Of a stretch of 64,000 nt of DNA, positions 18,011 to 53,945 are shown piece by piece. Made by a program: the position numbers and the translations under genes. The notes under the pieces were generated by a model. The model saw only the letters and a list, made by a program, of their open reading frames with translations. It searched no databases and was not told the origin of the DNA. Within the stretch, counting starts at the first letter, position 1. Each line of letters opens with the position of its first letter. Source of the DNA: Candidatus Omnitrophota bacterium (GTDB lineage Bacteria; Omnitrophota; Gorgyraeia; Zapsychrales; JBDRMG01); NCBI GenBank assembly GCA_043812495.1, contig JBDRMG010000047.1, forward strand, positions 43,771-107,770. Reading direction: 5' to 3'.

Positions 18011-18126
18011 TATTCTACTTCGCATAAGCGATGAAAATGATAGTAGATGCTTCGTAGAATATTCTCAGCTGAATAATTCTCCGAAGCCTATACTAGATTT
18101 TTCTACTGGTAAGGCGAAGGAGAATA
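18011..18126 (+). repeat. About 115 nt two-hairpin element (copy 1 of 3); candidate sRNA, leader RNA or MITE
   Basis: About 90% identical to 33123-33236. Hairpin 1 is attctacTTCgc…gcTTCgtagaat and hairpin 2 is tattctccGAAgcc…ggcGAAggagaata. A terminator-like hairpin lies about 55 nt downstream. Confidence 0.7.
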
Positions 18127-22899: not shown

Positions 22900-23300
22900 C
22901 CAGCCCATCTCCCTCCGGATTTTCTTCCTTGACATAGGGGGGATTTTTGTTAAATTGAGACCGTTGACCCTTACAACGGTCTCATCCTGAACGAAGTCGA
23001 AGGATTTGCGCACATGAGTTACATCTCCCGTTTCGCTTGGTCCGTAACTCATGGGGTTATCCAGGGGTGAAAGTCGTGGAAAAAACACAAAATTGAAAGC
23101 AAATTCCGGCAGCCCGCCATTGATTCATCGGCGGGCTGCCGATTCTATTTAAGCTCAGAAAAGATCGCAGACGTTGCCGGTCAATGATTATAGATTATAG
23201 TGTTTTCTTCTTCGCCCGCCACTAAATCGTTGGCGGGCTCGAAGTAAATTCGCCTCGTCACTTAGGTCATTTCATTCCATGAGTGACGGGCTCATTTAAG
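22900..23300. repeat. Array of heterogeneous hairpins, including a CTTCG-flanked GCCCGCCA REP at 23205-23250
   Basis: gagaccgttg…caacggtctc, catgagttac…gtaactcatg, cgcccgccactaaatcgttggcgggctcgaag and others. Confidence 0.65.
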
Positions 23301-26489: not shown

Positions 26490-26935
26490 CTGCAATGTTC
26501 TCATGTTGCAGCTTCGCAGAATGGATCACTTAGGAATTGTGAAAAGACAGACCACGGGTTTACCCGTGGTGGGTTGCCAAAGGTTTTTCGTGAGCGAAGC
26601 TCACGTAATATACATGGAACCACGGGTTTGCCCGTGGGGATCCATTTGCAGAATATATTGGATTGTTTTCTTCTTCGCCCGCCACTAAATCGTTGGCGGG
26701 CTCGAAGTAAATTAGGTCAGTGACTTATGTTCCTCTAAATGACGTCGCAACTTATGGAGCGAAGCGAACATAAGTTGCTTGACGGAATTTACTCCGTACC
26801 TTTGAGATATGTTGAATTATTTGCTAAAGGTGCGGAACTAATTCGTACAGTCACTTATGTTCATTCACTTTGTTCACTCCATAAGTGACGCACCCATGAG
26901 CCGTCCATAAGTCACGACCTCATTTAAATCAGGAG
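26490..26935. repeat. Hairpin-repeat array (REP plus heterogeneous hairpins)
   Basis: Includes tgcttcgctgcaatgttctcatgttgcagcttcgca, ccacgggtttacccgtgg twice, a CTTCG-flanked REP and cacttatg…cataagtg units. Confidence 0.65.
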
Positions 26936-28105: not shown

Positions 28106-28960
28106 ATGACAAGCGAAAATTCAATTCAAAAAGACCATCCATCGACCTTTGAAGCATTGCGGAAAGTCAATCAATATGGCCAGGATTATTGGTCTGCGCG
28201 CGAACTCGCTAAAATTCTGGGTTATTCTGAATTTCGCCACTTTCTTCCGGTTGTTAATAAAGCCAAGGAAGCGTGTCAAAATAGTAATCAAAATATTGCC
28301 GACCATTTCGAGGATGTCCTCGAAATGGTCTCGATAGGTTCTGGGGCACAACGTGAAATACAAGAGATAAGGCTCTCTCGTTATGCCTGTTATTTGATTG
28401 TCCAGAACGCTGACCCGGCCAAACCCATCGTGGCCGTTGGTCAGACATATTTTGCCGTTCAAACAAGAAAACAGGAAATCATTGAACAGGCTGATTATCG
28501 TAAGCTAAAGACAGAAAATGAAAAGCGGCTTTTCCTGCGTAATGAGCTCAAAGTTCATAATAAAAAATTAGCCGGCGTTGCTAAGGATGCCGGAGTTATC
28601 GCACCTCTTGATTATGCGATTTTTCAAGATCATGGCTACAAAGGTTTATACGGTGGATTTACCTCAAAGGATATTCACCGGCGAAAAGGGCTTAAGAAAA
28701 ACCAGCAGATCTTGGACCACATGGGCAGCACTGAGCTGGCGGCCAATCTTTTCCGAGCTACCCAAACCGAAGAAAAATTAAAGAGGGATAATGTTCAAGA
28801 CAAGACTAGGGCCAATGTGGTTCATTATGAGGTTGGCAAGAAAGTCCGGGAAACTATTGGAGCGCTTGGCAGCACCATGCCGGAAAATCTGCCAGTAGTT
28901 AAGAATATTAAGCTTATCCAGGCAAAGAGACGAAAAAGATTAAGAAATACGAAGCCATAA
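28106..28960 (+). CDS. dinD: DNA-damage-inducible protein D
   Basis: The translation aligns by eye to E. coli DinD (…YWSARELAKILGYSEFRHF…GAQREIQEIRLSRYACYLIV…QTYFAVQTRKQEIIEQ). Confidence 0.8.
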   Translation: MTSENSIQKDHPSTFEALRKVNQYGQDYWSARELAKILGYSEFRHFLPVVNKAKEACQNSNQNIADHFEDVLEMVSIGSGAQREIQEIRLSRYACYLIVQNADPAKPIVAVGQTYFAVQTRKQEIIEQADYRKLKTENEKRLFLRNELKVHNKKLAGVAKDAGVIAPLDYAIFQDHGYKGLYGGFTSKDIHRRKGLKKNQQILDHMGSTELAANLFRATQTEEKLKRDNVQDKTRANVVHYEVGKKVRETIGALGSTMPENLPVVKNIKLIQAKRRKRLRNTKP

Positions 28961-28998: not shown

Positions 28999-29598
28999 AT
29001 GGAAGAGCGACAGAAGCTTACCCCCAAACAAAAGAAGGTTTTACGGTTTATCTACGAAGAGATTAAGAATAGCCGCTTGCCTCCGACCATTCGCGAAATT
29101 GCCGAACAATTCGGGTTCAGCTCAACCGGCACTGTGCGCGATTATCTTCGGGCCCTTGTTTCCAAAGGCTATATCAAGATTTCCGCTGGGAAATCCAGGG
29201 CGATTGAACTTGTCAAAGAGGCCCTTTTTCAGGTACCTGTGGTCGGCTCTGTTGCGGCCGGGCATCCGACTCTGGCCGTTGAAGATATCGAAGGATACCT
29301 TGATTTGGATTCGCTTGTTTATCCGGAGGATGATTATTTTGCGCTTCGGGTGAAAGGCGACAGCATGATCGACGCCGGAATTTTACCGAATGATTTTGTT
29401 CTCATCAGGCGTCAGCAGGTGGCTGAAGTCGGAGAGATTGTTGTGGCATTGATCGATGATGAAGCGACCGTAAAAACTCTCGCTAAGCGCGGGGACAAAT
29501 TCTTTCTTGAGCCGGCCAATGCGCGCTACAAACCTATCCCTGTGACCCGCGACACCGTTATTATCGGCAAAGTACTTAATATTATCCGCAAGTATTAG
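28999..29598 (+). CDS. lexA: LexA repressor (S24 peptidase)
   Basis: N-terminal winged HTH (LTPKQKKVLRFIYEEI…PTIREIAEQFGFSSTGTVRDYLRAL). Ala-Gly cleavage site (VAAGHP). C-terminal GDSM and Lys catalytic dyad. Confidence 0.85.
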   Translation: MEERQKLTPKQKKVLRFIYEEIKNSRLPPTIREIAEQFGFSSTGTVRDYLRALVSKGYIKISAGKSRAIELVKEALFQVPVVGSVAAGHPTLAVEDIEGYLDLDSLVYPEDDYFALRVKGDSMIDAGILPNDFVLIRRQQVAEVGEIVVALIDDEATVKTLAKRGDKFFLEPANARYKPIPVTRDTVIIGKVLNIIRKY

Positions 29599-33122: not shown

Positions 33123-33236
33123 ATTCTACTTCGCATAAGCAATGGAAAAATAGTATATGCTTCGTAGAATATTCTCTGCCGAATAATTCTCCGAAGCCTA
33201 TACTATCTTTCTCTATTGGTAAGGCGAAGGAGAATA
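33123..33236 (+). repeat. About 115 nt two-hairpin element (copy 2 of 3)
   Basis: About 90% identical to 18011-18126. Followed at 33299-33329 by an aaggacggcc…ggccgtcctt hairpin. Confidence 0.7.
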
Positions 33237-33335: not shown

Positions 33336-33528
33336 CAATGAGACCATGATTTATGGAGCAAAGCGCCCGCCAATTTTTTAAATTTTTAGCGAGGTCTCGC
33401 CAATTCGATAAAATCGAATTGACGGAACATAAGTCATAAGGTCGAATTGACCCAGCCCGCCATTGATTCAGTGGCGGGCTGGGATAAAAAAAATACAAAT
33501 ATAATATTTCATCTAATAGGACAATGAT

Positions 33529-35046
33529 ATGAAAAAAATCGGTTTTGATAATGAAAAATATTTGAAAGAGCAGGCGCAAGCCATTTTGGAGAGGGTCAAG
33601 CAGTTTGACAATAAACTCTATCTGGAGTTCGGCGGTAAGCTTTTGTTTGATTATCATGCGGCTCGTGTTTTGCCGGGATTTGACCCCAATGTCAAGATGC
33701 GGTTGTTGAAGCAGCTCAAAAATGATGCGGATATTATTTTATGTATTTATGCGGGGGATATCGAACGAAAGAAAGTCCGTGCCGATTTTGGAATTACCTA
33801 TGATGCGGATGCCTTGAAATTGATCGATGATTTAAGAGACTGGGGCATTGATGTCTGCGCGGTTGTGATTACGCGCTTTGAGAATCAACCCGCCGCGACC
33901 ATTTTCAAAAATAAATTACAACGCCAGGGCACCAAGGTCTATACGCATCCGTTTACAAAAGGATATCCGACGGATGTCGATCTGATTGTCAGCGAGCAGG
34001 GTTACGGCGCCAACGAATACATCAAAACAAAACACGGCTTGGTCATTGTGACAGGCCCCGGGCCGGGAAGCGGAAAACTCGCGACTTGCCTGTCCCAGAT
34101 TTACCATGAATATCAAAAAGGCGTCAAAGCCGGTTATGCAAAATTCGAAACATTTCCCATCTGGAACTTGCCTTTAAAACATCCGGTGAATGTCGCTTAT
34201 GAATGCGCCACGGCCGATATTAAAGATTTCAACATGATCGATTCGTTCCACTTGGAAGCTTATCATCAAACAACGGTCAACTATAACCGGGACGTCGAAG
34301 TCTTTCCGGTCTTAAAAAGAATTCTAACTAAAATCATGGGCGAGGATGCGGTTTATAAATCTCCGACGGATATGGGGGTTAATCGGGCCGGTTTTGGCAT
34401 CATTGATGATGAGGCTATTCGCGAAGCATCCAAACAGGAAGCGATCAGGCGATATTTTAAATACGGCTGCGAATATTCCATGGGTTTGGTGGATAAGGAA
34501 ACCGTTGAACGCGCAGAATTATTGATGAAGGAAATGGGCGTTGCTATCGAAAACCGAACAGTTGTAAAGCCTGCGCGAGAGGCCGCCGAACAAGCTCGAG
34601 AAAAAGGAAAAGGAAACGAAGGCATTTTCTGCGGAGCCGCCATAGAGTTGCGTGACGGAAAGATTATCACGGGGAAGAATTCGCCTCTGATGCACGCGGC
34701 CTCCAGTCTCATCCTCAATGCCCTCAAGGACCTGGCCGAAATTCCGGACAAAATCCATCTATTGTCGGAAAATATTATCGGGTCCATATCCAACCTTAAG
34801 AAAGATGTGCTCAAGGCCAAAACATTGAGTTTAGACTTAGACGAAGCCTTGATCAGCCTCAGCATCAGCGCGGCCACCAATTCCACCTCTCAGTTAGCGA
34901 TAGAAAAATTAAAGGAATTGCAGGGATGCGAGGTTCACATTACGCATGTTCCGACGCCGGGTGATGAAGCAGGCTTAAGGCGACTCGGCGTGAATCTGAC
35001 CTGTGATACCAATTTTACGTCCAAAAGTTTTTTTGAAATCTCCTAA
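33529..35046 (+). CDS. DUF1846 / UPF0371-family protein
   Basis: 505 aa. The N-terminus [15 protein letters not shown]… and size are typical of UPF0371 proteins. Confidence 0.6.
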
Positions 35047-35269
35047 TCGACAACTGTAATGAAATATTATAATTGTATTTGCTTAATCCCCAGCCCGCCA
35101 CTGAATCAATAGCGGGCGGTGTCAATTCGGCCTTATGACTTATGTCGTCCGCCACAGAAACAATGGCGGACTCCATAAATCATGGCCTCATCGATAAGCG
35201 AAAGAGGAAGATATGCCAAGACGCAATGATATTCACAAAGTGCTTATAATCGGATCGGGACCCATTATT
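35011..35269 (+). repeat. Direct repeat copy 1 (about 258 bp): DUF1846 3' end, intergenic REPs and the first 19 codons of carB
   Basis: Near-identical to 37494-37751. It carries one extra T near its left end and synonymous differences in the carB codons. Confidence 0.85.
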
Positions 35270-35275
35270 CAGAAG
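35213..35275 (+). pseudogene. carB 5' fragment (MPRRNDIHKVLIIGSGPIIQK, then stop) left at the left junction of the insert
   Basis: Identical peptide to the carB1 N-terminus at 37695, but the nucleotides differ synonymously. It terminates at the repeat boundary. Confidence 0.7.
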
Positions 35276-35771
35276 TAAGTTATATAAATCCTGGAGAAAC
35301 GGTGAAATTTCCGGTTGTGAATCCCTTTAATTATGAAAAGTTTAAAAATGAAACAGCCACTATAGTATGTACTTTAGGAGCGTTGTTTAATAGAGTGACA
35401 ATAGTTTTGAAACCCCTGCCAGAAGTGCAAAACACCTCTACAAACGAAAAGTAAATTTATAGTATTCCCCTATGATCGGAAAATTGATCATGGCCGTTTT
35501 TCTACCTGTATACAGAGAGTCTTTCCGTTGCTCCGTATTTCTGGGCGTCCTGAGCGGAGACACCTCTCAAATTTTATAAGAGCTGTATACAAAGATGGAG
35601 TCACTCATCGAATATTTCTGCCCGTTCTGATCAAACATGCCCGTTTAATCAAGAGGATTTTTTAACATAGAAATAGCCTTTTTTAAAATTGTCACAGAGA
35701 GATGGGATAGAACTTCTTATAAAATTAAGATTTAATAGGTTTGGCATGATATTATTTGTTGTATATGTTAA

Positions 35772-36062
35772 GTGAGGAAATCATTTAGTAAAATGATTTT
35801 GGTTGTTTTATTATTTTTCAGCTTTTCTCTACAAGCTTTTGCTTCACCGAAGGATAGTCAGGAATATCTTGAACGCCAAACAATTTTTAATAATGTAACA
35901 GATTTTTTTGCTACTATTGGTGAATCAAAAGAAAAGAGAATAGTAATCAAAAGAGCAAAATGGCTAGCAAGACGAAAAGCACGTCTAAAGAAAGCCAGAG
36001 AGGAACAAAGAAAAAGTGAGATAGATGTTTTATCAATCAGTAGTATAATAAATTGGATTTAA
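35772..36062 (+). CDS. Small secreted protein with a Lys/Arg-rich C-terminal region
   Basis: Signal peptide (MILVVLLFFSFSLQAFA). 96 aa. Confidence 0.4.
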   Translation: MRKSFSKMILVVLLFFSFSLQAFASPKDSQEYLERQTIFNNVTDFFATIGESKEKRIVIKRAKWLARRKARLKKAREEQRKSEIDVLSISSIINWI

Positions 36063-36104
36063 AGGATGTCGTTTTATCTCTTGAAAACCTAACAGTATAG
36101 ACAT

Positions 36105-37268
36105 ATGGAAGAATTCATTTTTGATTTAAGTGTTGTTCTCGTTGGTGCAGCTATTTTATCCTTCTTGGCTGTTATCTTAAAGCAACCAATAATAATTGCT
36201 TATATCGTATGCGGAGTATTGGTTGGTCCTTGGGGAATCGGTTTGATTAAACATGCCGAATTTATAGAGATGATTGCACATCTTGGAATAACATTGCTTC
36301 TTTTTCTGGCAGGGCTTTGTTTGCATCCTCAAAAACTCGTCATGTTATTTAAAAAAACCACACTTGTTACTCTCGGCAACTGTTTAGCCTCGTTTCTTAT
36401 AGCCTTTCTTTTTGCTCTCATATTCCGTTTTGGAATTATGGATAGCCTCTGCATAGGTCTTGCGTTAATGTTTTCGAGTACTATATTAACTGTCAAGTTA
36501 CTTCCCACAACGAAGTTGCACCAGCAGAGAATGGGTGCTGTTTGCATAGGTATTTTGATTATGCAGGATTTATTGGCTATATCTGTGCTTGCGTTTATTC
36601 GGTGTTTAGATGCACCTCAAGGGGTCATGATTAACTTTGGTTTACTGATTATTAAGCTTTGTGTATTTATCGGAATTTTAGTTTTATTTGAACAATTTGT
36701 ACTAAGAAAAATTATGCATAAGGTCGAACGTTTTCATGAAGCGTTATTTATATTGGGATTGGCATGGTGTTTTGGGATAGCAAGCATTTCAAACCACATG
36801 GGACTTTTTTATGAAACAGGGGCCTTTTTTGCTGGCGTCGTATTAGCTAGGCACCGAATTTCGCTATTTATATCTGAAAGCTTGAAACCGCTGAGAGATT
36901 TTTTCTTAGTACTGTTTTTCTTTACTTTGGGAGCAAGGCTCGATTTTCTGGTGATGAAAGGTATCTTGATTCCAGCGGTACTCTTAGCGACGGTATTTTT
37001 AGTTATTAAACCATGGCTATTTAAAAAGTTCTTTATATTAACTGGCGAACAGACTGCTTTTGCCAAGGAAGCTGGAATACGGCTAGGGCAATTGAGTGAA
37101 TTTTCTTTATTAGTTGCGCTTTTAGCATTTGAATTAGGCCATATAAGTAGCGGTGCATCTCAACTCATTCAACTCGTCACCATTCTTACCTTTATAGCTT
37201 CAAGCTATATTGTGGTCTTCAAATATCCTACTCCAATTGGGGCAACAGAGAATTTGATTAAGGATTGA
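36105..37268 (+). CDS. Cation/proton antiporter (CPA family, Na+/H+ exchanger-like)
   Basis: Polytopic membrane protein with a GVLVGPWGIGLI-type motif and the TM topology of Na_H exchanger-family proteins. Confidence 0.65.
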   Translation: MEEFIFDLSVVLVGAAILSFLAVILKQPIIIAYIVCGVLVGPWGIGLIKHAEFIEMIAHLGITLLLFLAGLCLHPQKLVMLFKKTTLVTLGNCLASFLIAFLFALIFRFGIMDSLCIGLALMFSSTILTVKLLPTTKLHQQRMGAVCIGILIMQDLLAISVLAFIRCLDAPQGVMINFGLLIIKLCVFIGILVLFEQFVLRKIMHKVERFHEALFILGLAWCFGIASISNHMGLFYETGAFFAGVVLARHRISLFISESLKPLRDFFLVLFFFTLGARLDFLVMKGILIPAVLLATVFLVIKPWLFKKFFILTGEQTAFAKEAGIRLGQLSEFSLLVALLAFELGHISSGASQLIQLVTILTFIASSYIVVFKYPTPIGATENLIKD

Positions 37269-37493
37269 TTCTTTTCGTCAATGTCCACATATTATAGAAT
37301 GGACAACTTTAATTGATTATATATCAAACAGTTATAGTATTTTTATATAGAAAGATATGGACAAATAGGACAAAAATTACGAGGGAATTGCCTCTTTGAA
37401 AACCAAAAGTTCTTGCCATTAAGAGTAATTGTCAATATAATAACCCTACTGTAGGGTGAGAGGTTTCCCCTCATGAAATCTGAGAGGGACCCT

Positions 37494-37751
37494 AATTTTA
37501 CGTCCAAAAGTTTTTTGAAATCTCCTAATCGACAACTGTAATGAAATATTATAATTGTATTTGCTTAATCCCCAGCCCGCCACTGAATCAATAGCGGGCG
37601 GTGTCAATTCGGCTTTATGACTTATGTCGTCCGCCACAGAAACAATGGCGGACTCCATAAATCATGGCCTCATCGATAAGCGAAAGAGGAAGATATGCCA
37701 AGACGCAATGATATTCACAAAGTTCTCATTATCGGATCAGGCCCCATTATT
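37494..37751 (+). repeat. Direct repeat copy 2 (about 258 bp), providing the intact carB1 start
   Basis: See copy 1. Confidence 0.85.
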
Positions 37752-40700
37752 ATCGGTCAGGCCTGTGAATTTGATTATTCCGGGACCCAGGCCTGCAAGG
37801 CCCTTAAGGAAGAAGGGTATGAAGTTATTCTGGTCAATTCCAATCCCGCGACCATTATGACCGATCCGGGCATGGCCGATAAAACATATATTCAGCCTCT
37901 AACGGTTGATAGCCTTGAGAAGATTATCGAAAAAGAACGACCCGACGCGCTCCTTCCTAATTTGGGAGGACAGACAGGATTAAATCTTTCCTCTAGCCTC
38001 TACAAGGCTGGCATTTTGGATAAGTACGGCGTTCAGATTATCGGCGTTAAACCCGATGCCATCGAACGCGGTGAAGATCGCATTGCCTTTAAAGAAACCA
38101 TGAAAAAGCTTGGTATTGAGCTTCCGAAATCTGAGGCTTGTCATTCAGTTGAAGAGGCCGAGAAAATTGCCGAAATGCTCGGTTACCCCGTTGTGTTAAG
38201 ACCGGCTTATACTCTTGGCGGCACAGGTGGTGGCATGGCCTATAACGTCGAAGAGTTGCGCACAATTGTCACGCGGGGCTTAAACGCGAGCCTTGTGCGC
38301 CAGGTCTTGGTGGAAGAATCCGTACTCGGCTGGGAAGAGTTGGAGCTGGAAGTTGTGCGCGATGAGAAGAATCAAAAGATCACGGTTTGTTTTATTGAAA
38401 ATATTGATGCCATGGGCGTTCATACGGGCGATAGTTTCTGCGCGGCGCCTATGCTGACGGTTCCTAAGCCCCTTCAGAACAAGATGCAAGAGTTATCTTA
38501 CCGAATCGTTGATGCGATCGGCGTGGTGGGCGGGACCAATATCCAATTTGCCCACAATCTCAAGGATGATCGTTTGGTTGTGATCGAGATCAATCCAAGA
38601 ACATCGCGTTCTTCCGCGCTGGCCTCGAAGGCCACGGGTTTTCCAATTGCGCGGATTTCTACAAAATTAGCCGCGGGTCTGACCATGGATGAAATTCCTT
38701 ACTGGAAAGAAGGAACTCTTGAAAAATATGCCCCCAGCGGTGATTATGTGGTCATCAAGTTTGCCCGTTGGGCCTTTGAGAAATTTCCTCAAGCCAAAGA
38801 TGTTCTTGGTACGCAGATGAGGGCGGTGGGTGAGGTCATGAGTATCGGGAAAACCTTCAAAGAGGCTTTTCAGAAATCGATTCGTTCTCTTGAGATCAAT
38901 CGCTATGGTTTGGGCAGTGCCAAAAATTTCAAGCAATTGTCTTTGGATGAGCTCAAAAAAAGACTTGCCAATCCGTCGAGCGAGCGCATCTTTCTCATAT
39001 ACGAAGCCCTGCGTAAAGGCATAAATATTGAAGAGCTTTATCAAATGACGTATATCGGCCGGTGGTTTATTAAAGAGATGAAAGAGCTTGTTGACTATGA
39101 AGAAGAGATGCTTGCGTGTGGATGGAATAAGCTGTCGGACGAGAAGCTTAAGAAGGCCAAAGAATGGGGATTTGCCGATCGTTATCTCGCGAAGCTTTTT
39201 GGGATTAAGGAAAAAGACGTGAGACAGCGACGGATAAAAATCGGTAAACATGGTCGTTTTGAAGCGGTGCCGGTAAGCGGCGTGGAAAACGCGGCCTATT
39301 ATTATTCCACCTATATTGCCGAAGATTCTGTTCCCGTATCATCCAATAAGAAGATTATGATTTTAGGCGGCGGACCCAACCGTATCGGCCAGGGCATTGA
39401 ATTCGACTATACCTGCGTGCATGCGGCCTTTGCCTTGCGCGATGAAGGCTATGAATCGATTATGGTCAACTGCAATCCGGAAACGGTTTCTACGGATTAT
39501 GATACGTCCAACAAATTATACTTTGAACCTCTGACCATCGAAGACGTTCTAACGATTTATCACAAAGAAAAGCCCGAAGGCGTGATTGTCCAGTTCGGCG
39601 GTCAAACACCTTTGAATATTGCTCAGGAACTGAAAGATAACGGTGTTCAAATCCTTGGGACAAGCCCTGAAAGCATTCATTTTGCCGAAGACAGAGAACG
39701 TTTCCGCGAGAAAATGATTGAACTCAATATTCCTCAGCCGGAAAGCGGAACAGCCCGTTCGTTGGACCAGGCCATCAAGATCGCTAACAAAATAGGTTAT
39801 CCTCTGATGGTTCGGCCTTCTTATGTATTGGGCGGGCGCGGCATGGAAGTCATTTATGACGAACCCATGCTGAAGAAATATGCCCTGGAAGCGATCGAAG
39901 TGAGCCCCGATCATCCTATGCTCATCGACCGTTTTCTTGAACACGCCATCGAAACGGAAGTCGACGCCCTGTGTGACGGCCAGGAAACCTTTGTGGCCGC
40001 CGTTATGGAACACATTGAATTGGCCGGTGTCCATTCCGGCGATTCGGCTTGTTCTATTCCGACGCGTAACATCCCGGAAAAACACCTTAAGACCATAGAA
40101 GAGTATACGGTAAAGATCGCCAAGGCCTTAGGGGTCGTCGGTCTGACCAATATTCAGTATGCGATTTGCGACGACAAGGTCTATATCTTGGAAGCCAATC
40201 CCCGCGCTTCAAGAACGGTTCCGCTGGTCTCCAAAATCATGGGTGTTCCGATCGCAAGAATCGCGACCCAGCTTATGCTCGGCAAGAAGCTTAAGGACTT
40301 TCCTGAAATCAGAAATCTCAAAGCTCCCTTTTTCGGCGTTAAAGAAGCCGTTTTCCCTTTCAACATGTTTCCCGAAGTTGATCCGATTCTTGGGCCGGAG
40401 ATGAGGGCGACAGGTGAAGTGATGGGCATGGGCGATTCCTTCGGCATGGCGTTCTTCAAAGCCCAGGAATCAACCCCGGCCAAACTTCCCGTTGAAGGCA
40501 ATGTCTTATTGACGGTAACCGATAAAGATAAACAAGCCCTGCTTCCCATTGCCAAAAGAATCGAAAAATTAGGTTTCACGATTTATACTACCGAAGGAAC
40601 CGGCCGGTTTTTGGATGAAAACAAAGTTAAGAACACGCGCATCAAAAAATTACACGAAGGACGACCCAATATTTTGGATGCGATCAAAAACAATGAATTG

Positions 40701-40940
40701 CACTTGATTATCAACACGCCGATTGGCAAGGAAAGCAAATACGATGATAGCTATATCCGGATGATGGCGATTCAAAAGAAAATTCCTTATGTCACATCGA
40801 TCGCTGCAGCCGAAGCTAGCGTCGAGGGTATTGAGGCCGTTAAAAAAGGTGACATTGCCCCCAAATGCCTTCAGGACTATCATAGGTCTTCGGTTCAAAA
40901 GACGAAGAAAAAGCCTTGTCAAGCTTGCGGCGCAAAATAG
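37695..40940 (+). CDS. carB: Carbamoyl-phosphate synthase large subunit, paralog 1
   Basis: 1081 aa. Duplicated ATP-grasp halves and an MGS-like C-terminus. The N-terminus is [30 protein letters not shown]. Confidence 0.9.
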   Translation: MPRRNDIHKVLIIGSGPIIIGQACEFDYSGTQACKALKEEGYEVILVNSNPATIMTDPGMADKTYIQPLTVDSLEKIIEKERPDALLPNLGGQTGLNLSSSLYKAGILDKYGVQIIGVKPDAIERGEDRIAFKETMKKLGIELPKSEACHSVEEAEKIAEMLGYPVVLRPAYTLGGTGGGMAYNVEELRTIVTRGLNASLVRQVLVEESVLGWEELELEVVRDEKNQKITVCFIENIDAMGVHTGDSFCAAPMLTVPKPLQNKMQELSYRIVDAIGVVGGTNIQFAHNLKDDRLVVIEINPRTSRSSALASKATGFPIARISTKLAAGLTMDEIPYWKEGTLEKYAPSGDYVVIKFARWAFEKFPQAKDVLGTQMRAVGEVMSIGKTFKEAFQKSIRSLEINRYGLGSAKNFKQLSLDELKKRLANPSSERIFLIYEALRKGINIEELYQMTYIGRWFIKEMKELVDYEEEMLACGWNKLSDEKLKKAKEWGFADRYLAKLFGIKEKDVRQRRIKIGKHGRFEAVPVSGVENAAYYYSTYIAEDSVPVSSNKKIMILGGGPNRIGQGIEFDYTCVHAAFALRDEGYESIMVNCNPETVSTDYDTSNKLYFEPLTIEDVLTIYHKEKPEGVIVQFGGQTPLNIAQELKDNGVQILGTSPESIHFAEDRERFREKMIELNIPQPESGTARSLDQAIKIANKIGYPLMVRPSYVLGGRGMEVIYDEPMLKKYALEAIEVSPDHPMLIDRFLEHAIETEVDALCDGQETFVAAVMEHIELAGVHSGDSACSIPTRNIPEKHLKTIEEYTVKIAKALGVVGLTNIQYAICDDKVYILEANPRASRTVPLVSKIMGVPIARIATQLMLGKKLKDFPEIRNLKAPFFGVKEAVFPFNMFPEVDPILGPEMRATGEVMGMGDSFGMAFFKAQESTPAKLPVEGNVLLTVTDKDKQALLPIAKRIEKLGFTIYTTEGTGRFLDENKVKNTRIKKLHEGRPNILDAIKNNELHLIINTPIGKESKYDDSYIRMMAIQKKIPYVTSIAAAEASVEGIEAVKKGDIAPKCLQDYHRSSVQKTKKKPCQACGAK

Positions 40941-42411: not shown

Positions 42412-45400
42412 ATGCCTAAGCGTACAGACATAAAGAAAATCCTTGTGATTGGGTCCGGGCCCATCGTGATCGGCCAGGCCTGTGAATTTGATTATTCCGG
42501 AACCCAAGCCTGCAAGGCCCTCAAGGAAGAGGGTTTTGAAATTGTTTTGGTGAATTCCAATCCCGCGACCATTATGACGGATCCGGAAATCGCCGATCAT
42601 ACGTATATCGAACCTTTGACGGCCGAATTCGTTGAGAAGATTATCGCTAAAGAGAAACCCGATGCGGTTCTACCGACCTTGGGCGGGCAGACAGCCTTGA
42701 ATATTGCCATCCAGCTTCATGAAAATGGTGCTCTCAAGCGCCACAACGCTGAGCTCATCGGCGCCGGATATGAAATCATCAAGAAGGCCGAGGACCGCGA
42801 GTGTTTCAAGAAAGCAGCCATCAAGGCCGGCCTGGAAGTCCCTGAAAGCGCCTTTGCCTATAATATCGAAGAAGCCATGGATGTGACTAAGAAACTCGGT
42901 TTTCCCCTCATCATCCGACCCAGTTATACCCTCGGCGGCGCAGGCGGAGGGATTGCCAATAACATGGAGGAATTTGAGAAAGTTGCTTCTCTGGGGATTG
43001 AAAGCAGTATGATCCATGAGATTCTCATCGAAGAATCCATTATCGGATGGAAAGAGTTTGAGCTTGAGGTTATGCGCGACAATAAAGATAATGTGGTTAT
43101 CATTTGCTCCATCGAGAATCTTGATCCCATGGGCATTCATACAGGCGACAGTATTACCGTTGCGCCGGCGCAGACGTTAACGGATAAAGAATACCAGCAC
43201 ATGCGCGATCAGTCCCTTGCTTTGATCCGCGAAATCGGTGTCGAGACAGGCGGGTCCAATATTCAATTTGCTGTCAATCCCGCGGATGGGCGCATGGTTG
43301 TGATTGAAATGAATCCGCGTGTTTCTCGCAGCTCTGCTTTGGCGAGCAAAGCCACCGGTTTTCCCATTGCCAAGTTTGCCGCGAAGCTCGCCGTAGGTTA
43401 TTCCTTAGACGAAATCCAAAATGACATCACCAAGGAAACGCCGGCTTCCTTTGAGCCGACCATTGATTATTGTGTGGTGAAGATTCCCCGTTTTACGTTT
43501 GAGAAATTTCCCGAAGCCAAGGATATCCTGGGGATATCCATGAAATCCGTCGGGGAAACCATGGCCATCGGCCGCACGTTCAAGGAAGCCTTGCAAAAAG
43601 GTTTGCGGGGTTTGGAAATCGGCCATACGGGTCTGGATAATAAACTCAAATTTTCTGAAATACCCGATGAAAAAATCAAATGGCGCTTGCAGGAACCCAA
43701 TGCCTCGCGTATTTTTTATGTCAAATATGCTCTTCAGAAAGGTTTCAGCGAAGAAGATATTTTTAACTACTCTAAGATTGATCCGTGGTTTATTGCGCAA
43801 ATAAAGGAAATTGTGCAGTTTGAGAATCAAATGACCGAGACTTTGAACCAGAAAAAGACGCTGGATGTATCTGTGTTGCGTCGTGCCAAGGAGCTTGGTT
43901 TCAGCGATGCGCAACTGAGTGCTTCAATGAACTTAAAAGAGGAGGAATTTCGAGAGTATCGCAAGAAGCTCGGGATTGTGGCCACCTTTAAACTTGTCGA
44001 TACGTGCGCGGCCGAATTTAAAGCCTACACTCCTTATTTTTATTCGACCTATGAAATTGAAGATGAGGCCCAAGAGCAGATTGAGAAATTGGCGAAGAAT
44101 GCAATCGCGGATGACGCAGATATTAATCTGCGACATCGGCGGTTGCAATTGGTGAAATCTGCGGTTGCAAAGAAAAGAAAGATTATTATCCTCGGCGGCG
44201 GCCCGAACCGCATCGGTCAGGGCATTGAGTTTGACTATTGTTGTTGCCATGCCGCCTTTACGCTTCAGGAATTAGGCTATGAAGCCATTATGGTCAACTC
44301 CAATCCCGAAACAGTGTCAACCGATTATGATACATCCGACCGATTGTATTTTGAGCCGTTAACCTTTGAAGATGTTATGAATATTATTGAAGTCGAGAAG
44401 CCCGACGGTATTATTGTTCAGTTTGGCGGCCAAACGCCTTTAAATCTGGCGCGCCGGCTGCATGAGGCCGGCGCTCCCATTATCGGAACCAGCATTGACT
44501 CGATTGATTTGGCGGAAGATCGGGAGAAATTTTCGGAGTTTATCAAAAAACTTGGCCTTGTCCAACCGGCCAACGGTTATGCCCTCAACGTCGATGAGGC
44601 GGTCAAAACCGCGTCTCTGATCGGGTATCCTGTTTTGGCGCGTCCGTCGTATGTCTTGGGCGGCCGTGCCATGCGCATCGTTTATGACGAGAAATCTCTT
44701 TTGTCCTTTGTGGAAGAGGCCAAAGAGGTCTCGGCGGGTCATCCCCTTTTGATTGACAAATTTATTGAGGATGCCATTGAAGTGGATGTCGATGCCGTTT
44801 GTGACGGACAAGAGACGTATGTCGCCGGTATTATGGAGCATATTGAAAATGCGGGAATCCATTCCGGTGATTCGGCGTGCGTTCTTCCTCCCTTGACGAT
44901 CAGCGACGAGCTGATCGGAAAAATAAAAGAATACACTTACGCAATCGCGAAACATCTCCATGTCGTGGGGCTCATGAATATTCAATACGCCATCAAAGGA
45001 CATCAGATTTATGTTTTGGAAGTTAATCCCCGGGCCTCGCGCACGGTTCCTTTTGTCAGTAAGGCAACGGGTGTGCCTTTGGCCAAAATGGCGGCTCAAA
45101 TTATGGTCGGAAAAAAAGTTACGGATTTTAAACGCGTGGATATCGCTGACCTAAAATATGTTTCCGTGAAAGAATCCGTGCTGCCTTTTTCGCGCTTCTC
45201 CGGAGTCGATATTGTCCTGGGCCCGGAGATGAAATCCACCGGTGAGGTTATGGGTATTGACATGACCTTTGGCGCGGCCTTTGCCAAATCGCAAATCTGC
45301 GCGAATCAGGCCCTGCCGAGAAAAGGAACGGTTTTTATCAGCGTTAATGACAATGACAAACGCCATGTGGTTTTCTTAGCTAAAAAGCTGTCTGATCTGA

Positions 45401-45741
45401 AATTCGAAATCATCTCGACGAAAGGGACATCTAAGGTTCTTAAGTCCAATGACGTCAAGGTGAGCGTTGTGGATAAATTCGGCGAAGGCAAGAACGATCT
45501 GTTGACTTATATCAAGAAAGGTGAGATAAATTTAGTGATCAATACCCCTTCGGGCCAAAAAAGTCAATCGGATATGCGCGCTATTCGCGCCGCCGCTATC
45601 TTACACGGCATCCCCTGCATCACGACCTTGCAAGGGGCCTGGGCGGCGGTTAACGGTATTGAGGCCAGCTTGCATAAAGATTTTACAATCCAATCCTTGC
45701 AGGAATATTATCGTCAAGGGAGCTTATCATGTGCGGAATAG
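42412..45741 (+). CDS. carB: Carbamoyl-phosphate synthase large subunit, paralog 2
   Basis: 1109 aa, full length, closely related to paralog 1 ([30 protein letters not shown]). Confidence 0.9.
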
Positions 45742-49125: not shown

Positions 49126-49127
49126 AG

Positions 49128-49209
49128 CGCGGGTGGCGGAATTGGTATACGCGCACGTTTGAGGGGCGTGTGGGGCAACCCGTGTGGGTTCAAGTCCCAC
49201 CCCGCGCAT
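49128..49209 (+). tRNA. tRNA-Leu(GAG): tRNA-Leu (anticodon GAG), class II with a long variable arm
   Basis: Hand-folded. Acceptor GCGCGGG/CCCGCGC. Anticodon stem CACGT/GCGTG with loop TTGAGGG. Variable arm GGGGCAACCC. T-arm GTGGG-TTCAAGT-CCCAC. CCA is not encoded. Confidence 0.7.
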
Positions 49210-49691: not shown

Positions 49692-49964
49692 ATGATTTCG
49701 GAAAAAGACAAACAAGCGATAGCTGCCATAGCAGACAAGTATAACGTCAAACGTATTCTTTTATTTGGTTCTTATGCTGCTTTGCCTGAAGAGAACGCGA
49801 GGGATATCGATTTGGCCGTAGAGGGAATTCAAGCTAAAGATTTTTTTAAATTTTATGGAGATCTGCTTTTCAAATTGAAAAAGTCGGTAGATTTGATTGA
49901 TCTTTCATCAGATTGTAAGTTTAATAGCCTTGTTCGAGAAGAAGGAATACCCATCTATGGCTAG
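49692..49964 (+). CDS. Minimal nucleotidyltransferase (MntA-like antitoxin)
   Basis: GSYA…DIDL nucleotidyltransferase motif. 90 aa. Confidence 0.7.
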   Translation: MISEKDKQAIAAIADKYNVKRILLFGSYAALPEENARDIDLAVEGIQAKDFFKFYGDLLFKLKKSVDLIDLSSDCKFNSLVREEGIPIYG

Positions 49965-50376
49965 CTTAAAAAAACGGATAGAAGTAGAGTACGATAATAT
50001 TCAAAGAATTATTGCACAATTACCTAAAAGTAGATCGTTGCCAAATTTATCTGAACTCGAATTAGCAGGCGTCGCTGCCTTTCTTAACAGTTTTTATAAT
50101 GGAATTGAAAATATCCTAAAGCAAATGGTGCAAGAGAAAGGCCTTGACATCCCTCAGGGGCAAACATGGCAGCGTGATCTTGTTGAGCTAGCGGTCTCTC
50201 ACGATCTAATTTCACAGACAACAAGCAATCTGTTGAAACAATATTTGGCTTTTCGTCATTTCTTCAGCCATGCTTATGCTTTTGATTTGCGTGGTGACAG
50301 AATTTTACCATTGGTTGACGGGGTAGAAAAAGTTTTTGCAGGCTTATGTCATGATATAGAAAAGTTAGAAATTTAA
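49957..50376 (+). CDS. HEPN-domain protein (HepT-like toxin)
   Basis: Rx4HxY motif (FRHFFSHAY). The start is MASLKK at 49957, overlapping the nucleotidyltransferase gene stop by 8 bp. The ORF-track start at 49897 is an out-of-context extension. Confidence 0.65.
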   Translation: MASLKKRIEVEYDNIQRIIAQLPKSRSLPNLSELELAGVAAFLNSFYNGIENILKQMVQEKGLDIPQGQTWQRDLVELAVSHDLISQTTSNLLKQYLAFRHFFSHAYAFDLRGDRILPLVDGVEKVFAGLCHDIEKLEI

Positions 50377-53735: not shown

Positions 53736-53789
53736 AATTTCAGGAGCCTTATTTATTCTCCTTCGCCTTACTAATGGAACATAATGGTA

Positions 53790-53945
53790 CAGGCTTCGGA
53801 GAATTATTCCGATGAGAATATTCTACGAAGTTCTCCTTCGCCAAGGCTACGGAGGAATCCTTCGAAGTCCGCCAATGAAACAATGGCGGACGAAGAAGGA
53901 CATATACTATTATTTCTATTGGTTATGCGAAGTAGAATAGGATTC
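53790..53945 (-). repeat. Third copy of the 115 nt element (minus strand) in the 5' leader of the REC-GGDEF gene. It is interrupted by about 72 nt of nested hairpin insertions next to CTTCG/TTCG motifs.
   Basis: The reverse complement reads tattctacttcgcataaccaatagaaataatagtatatg, then the inserted hairpins, then ttcgtagaatattctcatcggaataattctccgaagcc…ggcgaaggagaata. Confidence 0.65.

What the first reader, a model, noticed from the sequence alone, without database searches (positions are those of the whole stretch)
35011..37751. About 2.2 kb low-GC insertion bounded by 258 bp direct repeats that duplicate a gene 3' end, intergenic REPs and the carB start
Copy 1 ends the DUF1846 gene and then encodes a 20-codon carB fragment that stops at the repeat edge. 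Copy 2 lacks one T in the DUF1846 tail but supplies the real carB1 start. The two carB N-terminal coding stretches encode the same peptide (KVLIIGSGPII) with synonymous nucleotide differences. So one copy was probably imported from a related genome with the insert, not duplicated in situ. The insert carries a cation/proton antiporter, a small secreted protein and about 500 bp with no ORF at 35270-35770. No integrase is present. Homologous recombination between related chromosomes is the likely mechanism.
Basis: seen in the sequence. Interest (0 to 1): 0.6.

Follow-up and report, generated by a model that had tools for sequence, protein, structure and literature searches.

The report
Foreign gene chunk with 258-bp target duplication
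A 2.2-kb random piece of another bacterium's chromosome, carrying an ion-antiporter gene, was spliced between two housekeeping genes of an uncultivated Omnitrophota bacterium by non-homologous joining that duplicated 258 bp of the target and so left both neighbours intact; it is a clean natural example of a known kind of event.

Summary
A 259/258-nt direct repeat (35011-35269, 37494-37751) brackets a 2,224-bp low-GC segment, X (35270-37493).

The window is an NCBI Omnitrophota MAG contig. Its closest relative, L005, has DUF1846 followed by carB after 18 bp, which is the empty site. None of about 160 related loci has an antiporter there.

X is foreign:
- Antiporter GC3 is 33%, against 52-54% in host genes.
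- The nearest relatives are 36-37% GC contigs (89% nt; 96% aa over the 244 comparable residues).

X is not a mobile element. Its left end cuts inside a lipoprotein gene, of which only the last 60 codons and a terminator-like hairpin remain. Its right end lies in intergenic DNA just past a conserved promoter-like site. It has no terminal repeats, integrase or transposase, and no viral or meaningful plasmid match.

Most likely, two microhomology-level illegitimate joins landed 258 bp apart in crossed order. This duplicated the DUF1846 tail, the REP spacer and the carB start.

Outside one patch the repeat copies differ at only 2 of 221 positions. Five synonymous differences cluster in carB codons 10-16, which points to a later recombination patch.

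Interest is modest.

The parts
33529..35046 (+). DUF1846 (UPF0371) gene, intact. Its last 36 nt including the stop lie in repeat copy 1.
   Evidence: Pfam PF08903 and PF20921. Identical to NCBI MFH1360676.1.
35011..35269 (+). Direct repeat copy 1 (259 nt): DUF1846 tail, 166-nt REP-bearing spacer and carB codons 1-19.
35047..35212 (+). Native spacer with two REP-type hairpins: a degenerate one near 35093-35119 and a perfect one at 35147-35171. It ends in the carB ribosome-binding site.
   Evidence: REP family has at least 10 copies in the window. Fold -52.2 kcal/mol, z = -4.55. An inverted 87-nt copy lies at 33427-33512.
35213..35278 (+). carB stub: 19 carB codons, then Q, K and a stop supplied by the insert. 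It carries the older or alternative carB allele at codons 10-16.
35270..37493 (+). Insert X, 2,224 bp of foreign low-GC Omnitrophota chromosome.
   Evidence: GC and GC3. 87-89% nt identity to L165/L166 over 35770-37498. 77% nt identity to L167 over 35266-35455.
35272..35454 (+). 3' fragment (60 codons plus stop) of a lipoprotein gene of about 180 aa. The frame is open from the junction.
   Evidence: phmmer E = 1.2e-15 to P0247, residues 119-179 of 180; 11 family members found. Nucleotide alignment.
35470..35493 (+). Terminator-like hairpin with a T-run after the lipoprotein stop codon.
   Evidence: consensus scan only.
35793..36062 (+). 89-aa protein with a signal-peptide-like N-terminus and a basic C-terminus (MFH1360677.1).
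   Evidence: 74% aa identity to the 89-aa ORF upstream of the antiporter in L165/L166. No Pfam match.
36105..37268 (+). Intact cation:proton antiporter, 387 aa (MFH1360678.1).
   Evidence: PF00999, E = 2.7e-42. More than 100 Omnitrophota homologues, almost all 387 aa. 96% aa identity to P0242.
37413..37441 (+). Promoter-like site TTGCCA-17-TATAAT at the right end of X, now reading into copy 2 and carB.
   Evidence: 11/12 consensus match. Invariant in L165/L166, where flanking DNA has diverged. Function is inferred.
37494..37751 (+). Direct repeat copy 2 (258 nt): dead DUF1846 tail (T6), REP spacer and the start of the live carB.
37724..37742 (+). Patch of five synonymous third-position differences from copy 1 (35242-35260).
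   Evidence: P about 3e-4 to 7e-4 for the clustering alone.
37695..40940 (+). carB (large subunit of carbamoyl-phosphate synthase), intact.
   Evidence: 83% aa identity to L005 carB. MFH1360679.1.

Best explanation
X is a random 2,224-bp piece of chromosome from a different, low-GC Omnitrophota lineage. It contains the last third of a lipoprotein gene with its terminator-like hairpin, an 89-aa secreted-protein gene, an intact PF00999 cation:proton antiporter gene, and 226 bp of downstream intergenic DNA with a promoter-like site.

It entered the host's conserved PFK-DUF1846-carB-carA-carB2 cluster through two illegitimate joins with only a few bases of microhomology. One join is at carB codon 19/20 (35269|35270). 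The other is 36 nt before the end of DUF1846 (37493|37494).

The two joins hit the target in crossed order, 258 bp apart. This could happen by bridging two sister copies, by template switching at a fork, or by fill-in of a staggered break. As a result the intervening 258 bp is present on both sides, like a giant target-site duplication. DUF1846 keeps its own 3' end. carB keeps its own start, ribosome-binding site and REP spacer. Only such an arrangement would leave both genes working.

Later, a homologous-recombination or short-patch event with a diverged carB allele changed five synonymous sites in codons 10-16 of one copy, most likely the live carB. That would make the stub a fossil of the earlier allele.

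Shown: the repeat, the foreign composition, the truncated donor gene, the end of donor homology at the junction, and the empty site in a relative.
Inferred: the joining mechanism, the order of events and the use of the promoter.
For: - Repeat anatomy.
- Empty site: L005 has PFK-DUF1846-(18 bp)-carB-carA-carB2 and L029 has a 39-nt gap. No antiporter lies near DUF1846 in about 160 related loci.
- Foreign composition: antiporter GC3 0.33 and small ORF 0.19, against 0.52-0.54 for host genes.
- Nearest relatives of the insert are low-GC contigs. L165/L166 have 36-37% GC, 87-89% nt identity, 96% aa on the antiporter and 74% aa on the 89-aa ORF.
- The antiporter sits in a different gene neighbourhood in every genome examined.
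- Left end: it falls inside a gene. The frame 35272-35454 matches residues 119-179 of 180-aa lipoproteins (E = 1.2e-15). Nucleotide homology to L167 starts at 35266.
- Right end: homology to L165/L166 stops at 37493-37498, where host sequence resumes.
- Possible microhomologies: TAT(T) at the left junction and CC/AA/TT at the right.
- No mobile-element features: no terminal inverted repeats, no recombinase, no tRNA nearby, no viral relative, and only a 129-nt 74% plasmid match inside the antiporter gene.
- Both repeat copies are host DNA. REP hairpins of the same family occur at least 10 times in the window, and the copies differ at 2 of about 221 positions outside the patch.
Against: - The true donor sequence is unknown. 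The best relatives are 77-89% identical, so the microhomologies are only plausible and X could be a composite of two donor pieces. No relative has been found for 35455-35769.
- No same-species genome was found. The empty site is shown only in a relative with 83% aa identity.
- Read-level support for the assembly cannot be checked here.
- The five-site patch needs an extra event.
- The mechanism that produces a 258-bp duplication is inferred from the end product only.
Confidence: 0.7

Rival explanations
1. The insert came in by homologous recombination from a related chromosome that already carried it, either by double crossover or by Campbell-type integration of a circle made of repeat plus X. 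One repeat copy is then donor-derived.
For: Five clustered synonymous differences in carB codons 10-16 imply a second, functional carB allele. A circle of repeat plus X could arise by recombination between the 258-nt repeats and re-integrate into a naive strain. The crossover would fall in the 29 identical nucleotides at the carB start, the first stretch conserved between diverged genomes.
Against: This can only move an existing structure. It cannot create the duplication or the two non-homologous junctions. Outside the patch the copies differ at 2 of about 221 positions in REP spacer DNA that the closest relative lacks, so no copy looks imported from a diverged genome. No second strain is available for comparison.
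Confidence: 0.15
2. Assembly artefact. The MAG contig is chimeric, or strain variants were mixed so that the repeat and its differences do not coexist on one molecule.
For: The contig comes from a metagenome bin. The T7/T6 difference is a homopolymer length. A mixture of strains could put different carB alleles into the two copies.
Against: A chimera would not return to the same host locus after 2.2 kb. The junctions share at most about 4-6 nt, far below any assembler k-mer. Distinguishing sites are no more than 110 nt apart, so k-mers of 111 nt or more resolve the two copies. The annotated public record contains the insert.
Confidence: 0.07
3. Remnant of an integrase-mobilised island or transposon whose att sites or target-site duplication are the 258-nt repeats. 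The recombinase has since been lost.
For: Direct repeats that duplicate a gene's 3' end resemble attL/attR of integrative elements.
Against: There is no recombinase or transposase in X or in the neighbouring ORFs scanned. There are no terminal inverted repeats and no tRNA target. The left end is a gene cut at about codon 119. The repeat is host REP spacer plus the carB start, which a low-GC donor element would not carry. 258 bp is far beyond transposase target duplications.
Confidence: 0.04

Closest known systems
Double illegitimate recombination (DIR) of foreign DNA during natural transformation (Hulter & Wackernagel 2008, as cited in PMC12359135); related: homology-facilitated illegitimate recombination
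   Same: A non-mobile foreign DNA segment is integrated with no flanking homology. The joins fall at arbitrary donor positions and share only a few bases.
   Different: Seen here in a wild, uncultivated genome rather than a laboratory selection. The join sites are crossed, giving a 258-bp duplication rather than a deletion. Uptake by transformation is not shown. What I recall of the laboratory junction spectra is from memory and was not checked.
Microhomology-mediated template switching (MMBIR/FoSTeS-type insertion-duplications; from general knowledge)
   Same: Predicts exactly A-B-X-B-C: a switch to another template, then a return upstream on the original template, with microhomology at each switch.
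   Different: That model is established mainly in eukaryotes and in E. coli amplification systems. Use of an exogenous template is speculative here.
Transposon or insertion-sequence target-site duplication
   Same: Direct duplication of target sequence on both sides of an insert.
   Different: 258 bp instead of 2-15 bp. No transposase and no terminal repeats. The insert ends inside a truncated gene.
Integrase-type genomic islands with att direct repeats that restore a gene's 3' end
   Same: The repeat includes a gene's 3' end, and the cargo is compositionally foreign.
   Different: No integrase and no tRNA target. The repeat also contains the next gene's 5' end and host-specific REPs.
[quoted passage not shown] 2016)
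   Same: Produces tight clusters of substitutions from a short stretch of ectopic DNA. This is a candidate origin for the five-site patch.
   Different: Here all changes are synonymous and in register with a homologous gene. That fits a homeologous carB donor better than an unrelated ectopic strand.

Membership tests
Illegitimate (non-homologous) integration of foreign chromosomal DNA | No homology between insert ends and target beyond a few bases | tested here: met
   Homology to carB stops sharply at 35269, and no degraded carB lies beyond it. Donor-type homology stops at 37493-37498.
Illegitimate (non-homologous) integration of foreign chromosomal DNA | Insert ends at arbitrary donor positions rather than element termini | tested here: met
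   The left end cuts a lipoprotein gene at about codon 119 of 180. The right end lies about 110 nt upstream of the next gene in L165.
Illegitimate (non-homologous) integration of foreign chromosomal DNA | Microhomology at both joints | tested here: inconclusive
   TAT(T) at the left and CC/AA/TT at the right are compatible, but the donor is known only through relatives 77-89% identical.
Illegitimate (non-homologous) integration of foreign chromosomal DNA | Insert derives from a different lineage than the host | tested here: met
   GC3 0.19-0.33 against 0.52-0.54. Nearest relatives are contigs of 36-37% GC. Empty site in L005.
Transposon / insertion sequence | Transposase gene, terminal inverted repeats and a short target-site duplication | tested here: not met
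   Pfam finds only PF00999 in X. No terminal inverted repeats. The duplication is 258 bp.
Integrase-mediated genomic island | Tyrosine or serine recombinase in or next to the element; att core at a tRNA or gene 3' end | tested here: not met
   No recombinase in X or in the ORFs of at least 150 aa scanned from about 20.6 to 51.7 kb. The nearest tRNA is at 49127. The repeat spans a gene's 3' end, the spacer and the next gene's 5' end.
   X's own ends are non-homologous to the host. Divergence is 2 of about 221 positions against 5 of 37, not spread evenly.
Na+/H+ exchanger superfamily (PF00999) - cargo gene | Full-length match to the transmembrane exchanger domain | tested here: met
   E = 2.7e-42, residues 15-364 on profile positions 4-363 of 375. 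No other domain matched, so the KefB/KefC names some sources give its homologues were not tested. Ion specificity was not tested.
REP (repetitive extragenic palindrome) elements - content of the duplicated spacer | Short GC-rich imperfect palindromes, intergenic, many copies per genome | tested here: met
   At least 10 hairpins of one consensus in 64 kb. Stable fold, z = -4.55. An associated RAYT transposase was not searched for specifically.

The most novel reading that the evidence does not exclude
The 258-bp duplication is not a one-off accident. It would instead be the footprint of a regular pathway in these REP-rich Omnitrophota genomes, such as breaks or fork stalling at REP hairpins that capture exogenous DNA and fill in long staggered ends. 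The unit of repeat plus X could then excise as a circle and spread between strains by homologous recombination, acting as a recombinase-free mobile cassette.
Probability: 0.06. Interest if true: 0.6.

Novelty: new member of a known kind. Interest (0 to 1): 0.3.

Why it matters
Most documented gene gain in bacteria is tied to mobile elements or flanking homology. Clean natural footprints of purely illegitimate integration of ordinary chromosomal DNA are scarce. This case has three useful features:
- a truncated donor gene still readable at one junction;
- a donor promoter-like site delivered in front of an essential host gene;
- a long target duplication that preserved both neighbours.

It shows how an uncultivated, small-genome phylum can acquire a transporter without any mobility machinery. 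The dead carB stub also preserves a 'fossil' allele that records later recombination in carB. It remains a single event of a known kind, so its value is illustrative rather than conceptual.

Tried and rejected
- Degraded carB 5' remnant at 35270-35800. blastx and local nucleotide alignment score no better than shuffles. Rejected.
- Structured RNA in the 'ORF-free' 500 bp. Rfam gives nothing at gathering score. The only hit at E up to 1 is a chance NsiR4 match in the REP of copy 2.
- Terminal inverted repeats or other element ends in X. None found.
- carB2 paralogue (42412-45741) as the source of the five-site patch. It shares at most 1 of 5 sites with either copy (by inspection). Rejected.
- Mosaic scan of carB against nine relatives to find an imported tract. 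The relatives are too distant (62-88% nt), and no block stands out. Uninformative.
- Same-species comparison. The genome and metagenome scans with DUF1846 found nothing above 83% or 81% identity. The protein search found only the window's own protein at 100% and then 83%. The window's own proteins are not retrievable as contigs.
- A word-based protein search with the 60-aa fragment found nothing. The exhaustive HMMER search then found the family.
- Recurrent insertion at this junction. The 1.5-kb gaps in L065, L093, L097 and L126 were not pursued as insertions. The one examined, L065, holds a native purF-like gene and has no flanking repeats.
- Phage or plasmid vector. No viral relative. The only plasmid hit is 129 nt at 74% inside a Legionella antiporter gene.
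Full report
**What is there.** The window carries a direct repeat, 35011-35269 (259 nt) and 37494-37751 (258 nt), around a 2,224-bp segment, X (35270-37493). Each copy consists of three parts:
- the last 36 nt of the DUF1846 gene, including its stop codon;
- a 166-nt spacer;
- the first 57 nt of carB.

Copy 1 completes the real DUF1846 (33529-35046). It then encodes a 21-codon carB stub that runs two codons into X (35213-35278). Copy 2 has a dead DUF1846 tail and the real carB start at 37695.

The copies differ in three ways:
- one T in a homopolymer (T7 against T6);
- one C/T (35132 / 37614);
- five substitutions within 19 nt (35242-35260 / 37724-37742).

All five substitutions are third positions of carB codons 10, 11, 12, 15 and 16, and all are synonymous. 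Five of six substitutions falling within 21 nt has a probability of about 7e-4. Five or more falling in the last 37 of 258 nt has a probability of about 3e-4. Neither figure counts the requirement that all five be synonymous.

**Host and context.** The proteins are in NCBI as MFH1360675-681 of a Candidatus Omnitrophota MAG contig of 108,289 bp, so the public record contains the insert. The local gene order is PFK, DUF1846, [X], carB, carA, a second carB paralogue, then purF- and pyrG-like genes.

The spacer holds two hairpins of a REP-like family, G[CT]CCGCCA-N9-TGGCGG[GA]C. This family occurs at least ten times in the 64 kb. The spacer folds far better than shuffled versions (z = -4.55). An inverted 87-nt copy of the same element lies upstream of DUF1846. 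The duplicated DNA is therefore native host DNA.

**Empty site.** The closest relative found is L005 (CAYZIY010000007.1), with DUF1846 and carB both 83% aa identical. It has PFK, DUF1846, carB, carA and carB2 in the same order, with only 18 bp between DUF1846 and carB and no REPs. L029 has a 39-nt gap. Among about 160 related loci from genomes and metagenomes, none has an antiporter next to DUF1846. No same-species sequence was found, so the empty site is shown only in this distant relative (83% aa identity).

**X is foreign.** X has 35.3% GC, against 44.8% for the rest of the window. Antiporter GC3 is 0.33 and the small ORF 0.19, against 0.52-0.54 for the four flanking genes.

The antiporter (PF00999, 387 aa) belongs to a family present in hundreds of Omnitrophota, almost all at exactly 387 aa. 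It sits in a different neighbourhood in every genome examined. Its closest relative is P0242, 96% aa identical over 244 residues. P0242 lies on two JGI contigs, L165 and L166, of 36-37% GC.

These contigs align to window 35770-36836 at 89% nt and to 36738-37498 at 87% nt. They also carry an 89-aa ORF, 74% aa identical to the window's small ORF, directly upstream of the antiporter. There it follows purC, not the sequence seen in X.

**The ends of X.**
- Left end: the reading frame starting at 35272 is open from the junction to a stop at 35452-35454. An exhaustive HMMER search matches it to the C-terminal 60 residues of lipoproteins of about 170-180 aa. The best hit is P0247 (E = 1.2e-15, 68% identity, residues 119-179 of 180; 11 hits in all). 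The family has no Pfam model.
- Nucleotide homology to the P0247 gene (L167) starts at 35266 and ends at the shared stop codon. A terminator-like hairpin follows at 35470-35493. X therefore begins in the middle of a foreign gene.
- Right end: homology to L165/L166 runs through the antiporter's downstream intergenic region and stops at 37493-37498, exactly where the host repeat resumes.
  - Host: GATACC|AATTTTACG
  - L165: GGGACCCC|AAATTATTA
  - Product: GGGACCCT|AATTTTACG
- In L165 the next gene starts about 110 nt further on.
- A near-consensus promoter-like site, TTGCCA-17-TATAAT (37413-37441), is invariant in L165/L166 although the surrounding DNA has diverged. It now points into copy 2 and carB.
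- X has no terminal inverted repeats. It has no recombinase or transposase in or near it and no tRNA target. It has no viral relative and no meaningful plasmid match. Nothing in Rfam matches it.

**Mechanism (inferred).** A piece of ordinary foreign chromosome, cut at arbitrary points, is joined to the host at two positions that share at most a few bases with it: TAT(T) on the left and CC/AA/TT on the right. This is the footprint of illegitimate recombination.

The two host join points are 258 bp apart and in crossed order, so the interval is duplicated. The same product would arise in any of three ways:
- bridging two sister copies;
- template switching at a stalled fork;
- filling in a long staggered break.

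The sequence cannot tell these apart. The duplication is what makes the event viable. A simple insertion at 35269 would destroy carB, and one at 35011 would truncate DUF1846. Double illegitimate recombination of foreign DNA is documented experimentally (Hulter & Wackernagel 2008, cited in PMC12359135).

**The five-site patch.** Outside the patch the copies differ at only 2 of about 221 positions, across spacer DNA that the nearest relative lacks altogether. Both copies are therefore recent duplicates of host DNA.

Five synonymous changes in seven consecutive codons cannot be decay of a dead stub. They are the signature of a second functional carB allele. The simplest reading is a later homologous crossover or short conversion patch whose 5' limit lies in the first 29 nt of carB. 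That is the first stretch conserved between diverged genomes, because the upstream spacer is not conserved.

Two readings are mirror images, and one genome cannot separate them:
- the live carB was overwritten, leaving the stub as a fossil;

The carB2 paralogue is not the source. A scan of carB against nine relatives for a mosaic block was uninformative. Short-patch mechanisms that give clustered substitutions are known.

**Artefact check.** A chimeric join would not return to the same locus after 2.2 kb. The junction overlaps are far shorter than any assembler k-mer. Distinguishing sites are no more than 110 nt apart, so the two copies can be resolved with k-mers of 111 nt or more. Read-level confirmation is still needed and cannot be done here.

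**Verdict.** The proposed mechanism is not supported: homologous recombination cannot make the duplication or the two non-homologous junctions.

The feature is a well-preserved natural example of recombinase-free, illegitimate acquisition of a transporter gene with a 258-bp target duplication. It is a new member of a known kind and of modest interest (0.3).

Noticed in passing
L165:2912-4690 and L166:813-2258: In the two donor-lineage contigs the antiporter stops at codon 244. There it abuts the reverse complement of its own 3' part, the downstream intergenic DNA and the start of the next gene. About 99 nt are present in both orientations. The same structure appears in two different samples, so it is either a real inversion or fold-back, or a shared assembly artefact.
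   Followed up: partly
window 460, 4129, 23216, 26679, 33457, 35149, 37631, 48929, 53869, 57073: A REP-like hairpin family, G[CT]CCGCCA-N9-TGGCGG[GA]C, is scattered through the intergenic regions. Other 40-90-nt intergenic repeat families also occur, e.g. 18040-18126, 33150-33236 and an inverted copy at 53746-53830. No RAYT-type gene was looked for.
   Followed up: partly
window 23190-23267 and 26653-26730: Two 78-nt REP-bearing direct repeats (86% identical) bracket 3.4 kb. The interval holds two ORFs with no Pfam match and an ORF with DUF1016_N and SNase fragments. A Bro-N protein (28106-28960) and LexA (28999-29598) follow. This may be a second island or a defence or prophage remnant.
   Followed up: no
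window 33427-33512 and 35059-35145: The DUF1846 gene is bracketed by inverted copies (about 90% identical) of an 87-nt element that contains the REP hairpin.
   Followed up: no
window 37695-40940 and 42412-45741: Two full-length carB paralogues (50% aa identity) flank carA. The same arrangement is present in L005, so it is ancestral to this lineage.
   Followed up: partly
loci L005-L164: DUF1846 (UPF0371) and carB are neighbours in 23 of about 160 related loci, mostly Omnitrophota. The order varies: carB then DUF1846 in 17 loci, DUF1846 then carB in 6. Some have a purF-like gene between them. This hints at a functional link between DUF1846 and nucleotide biosynthesis.
   Followed up: partly
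window 35793-36062; L165:2558-2827: An 89-aa protein with a signal-peptide-like N-terminus and a lysine/arginine-rich C-terminus lies directly upstream of the antiporter in the window and in L165/L166 (74% aa identity). It has no Pfam family. It may be a partner of the antiporter.
   Followed up: partly
window 35272-35454; P0247, P0249-P0252, P0256: The truncated gene belongs to an uncharacterised family of lipoproteins of about 170-180 aa (lipobox LxGC, conserved YINPG and IVLKPLP motifs) with no Pfam model.
   Followed up: partly
window 49897-50376: An ORF with a HepT-like toxin domain lies just downstream of tRNA-Leu (49127-49208).
   Followed up: no
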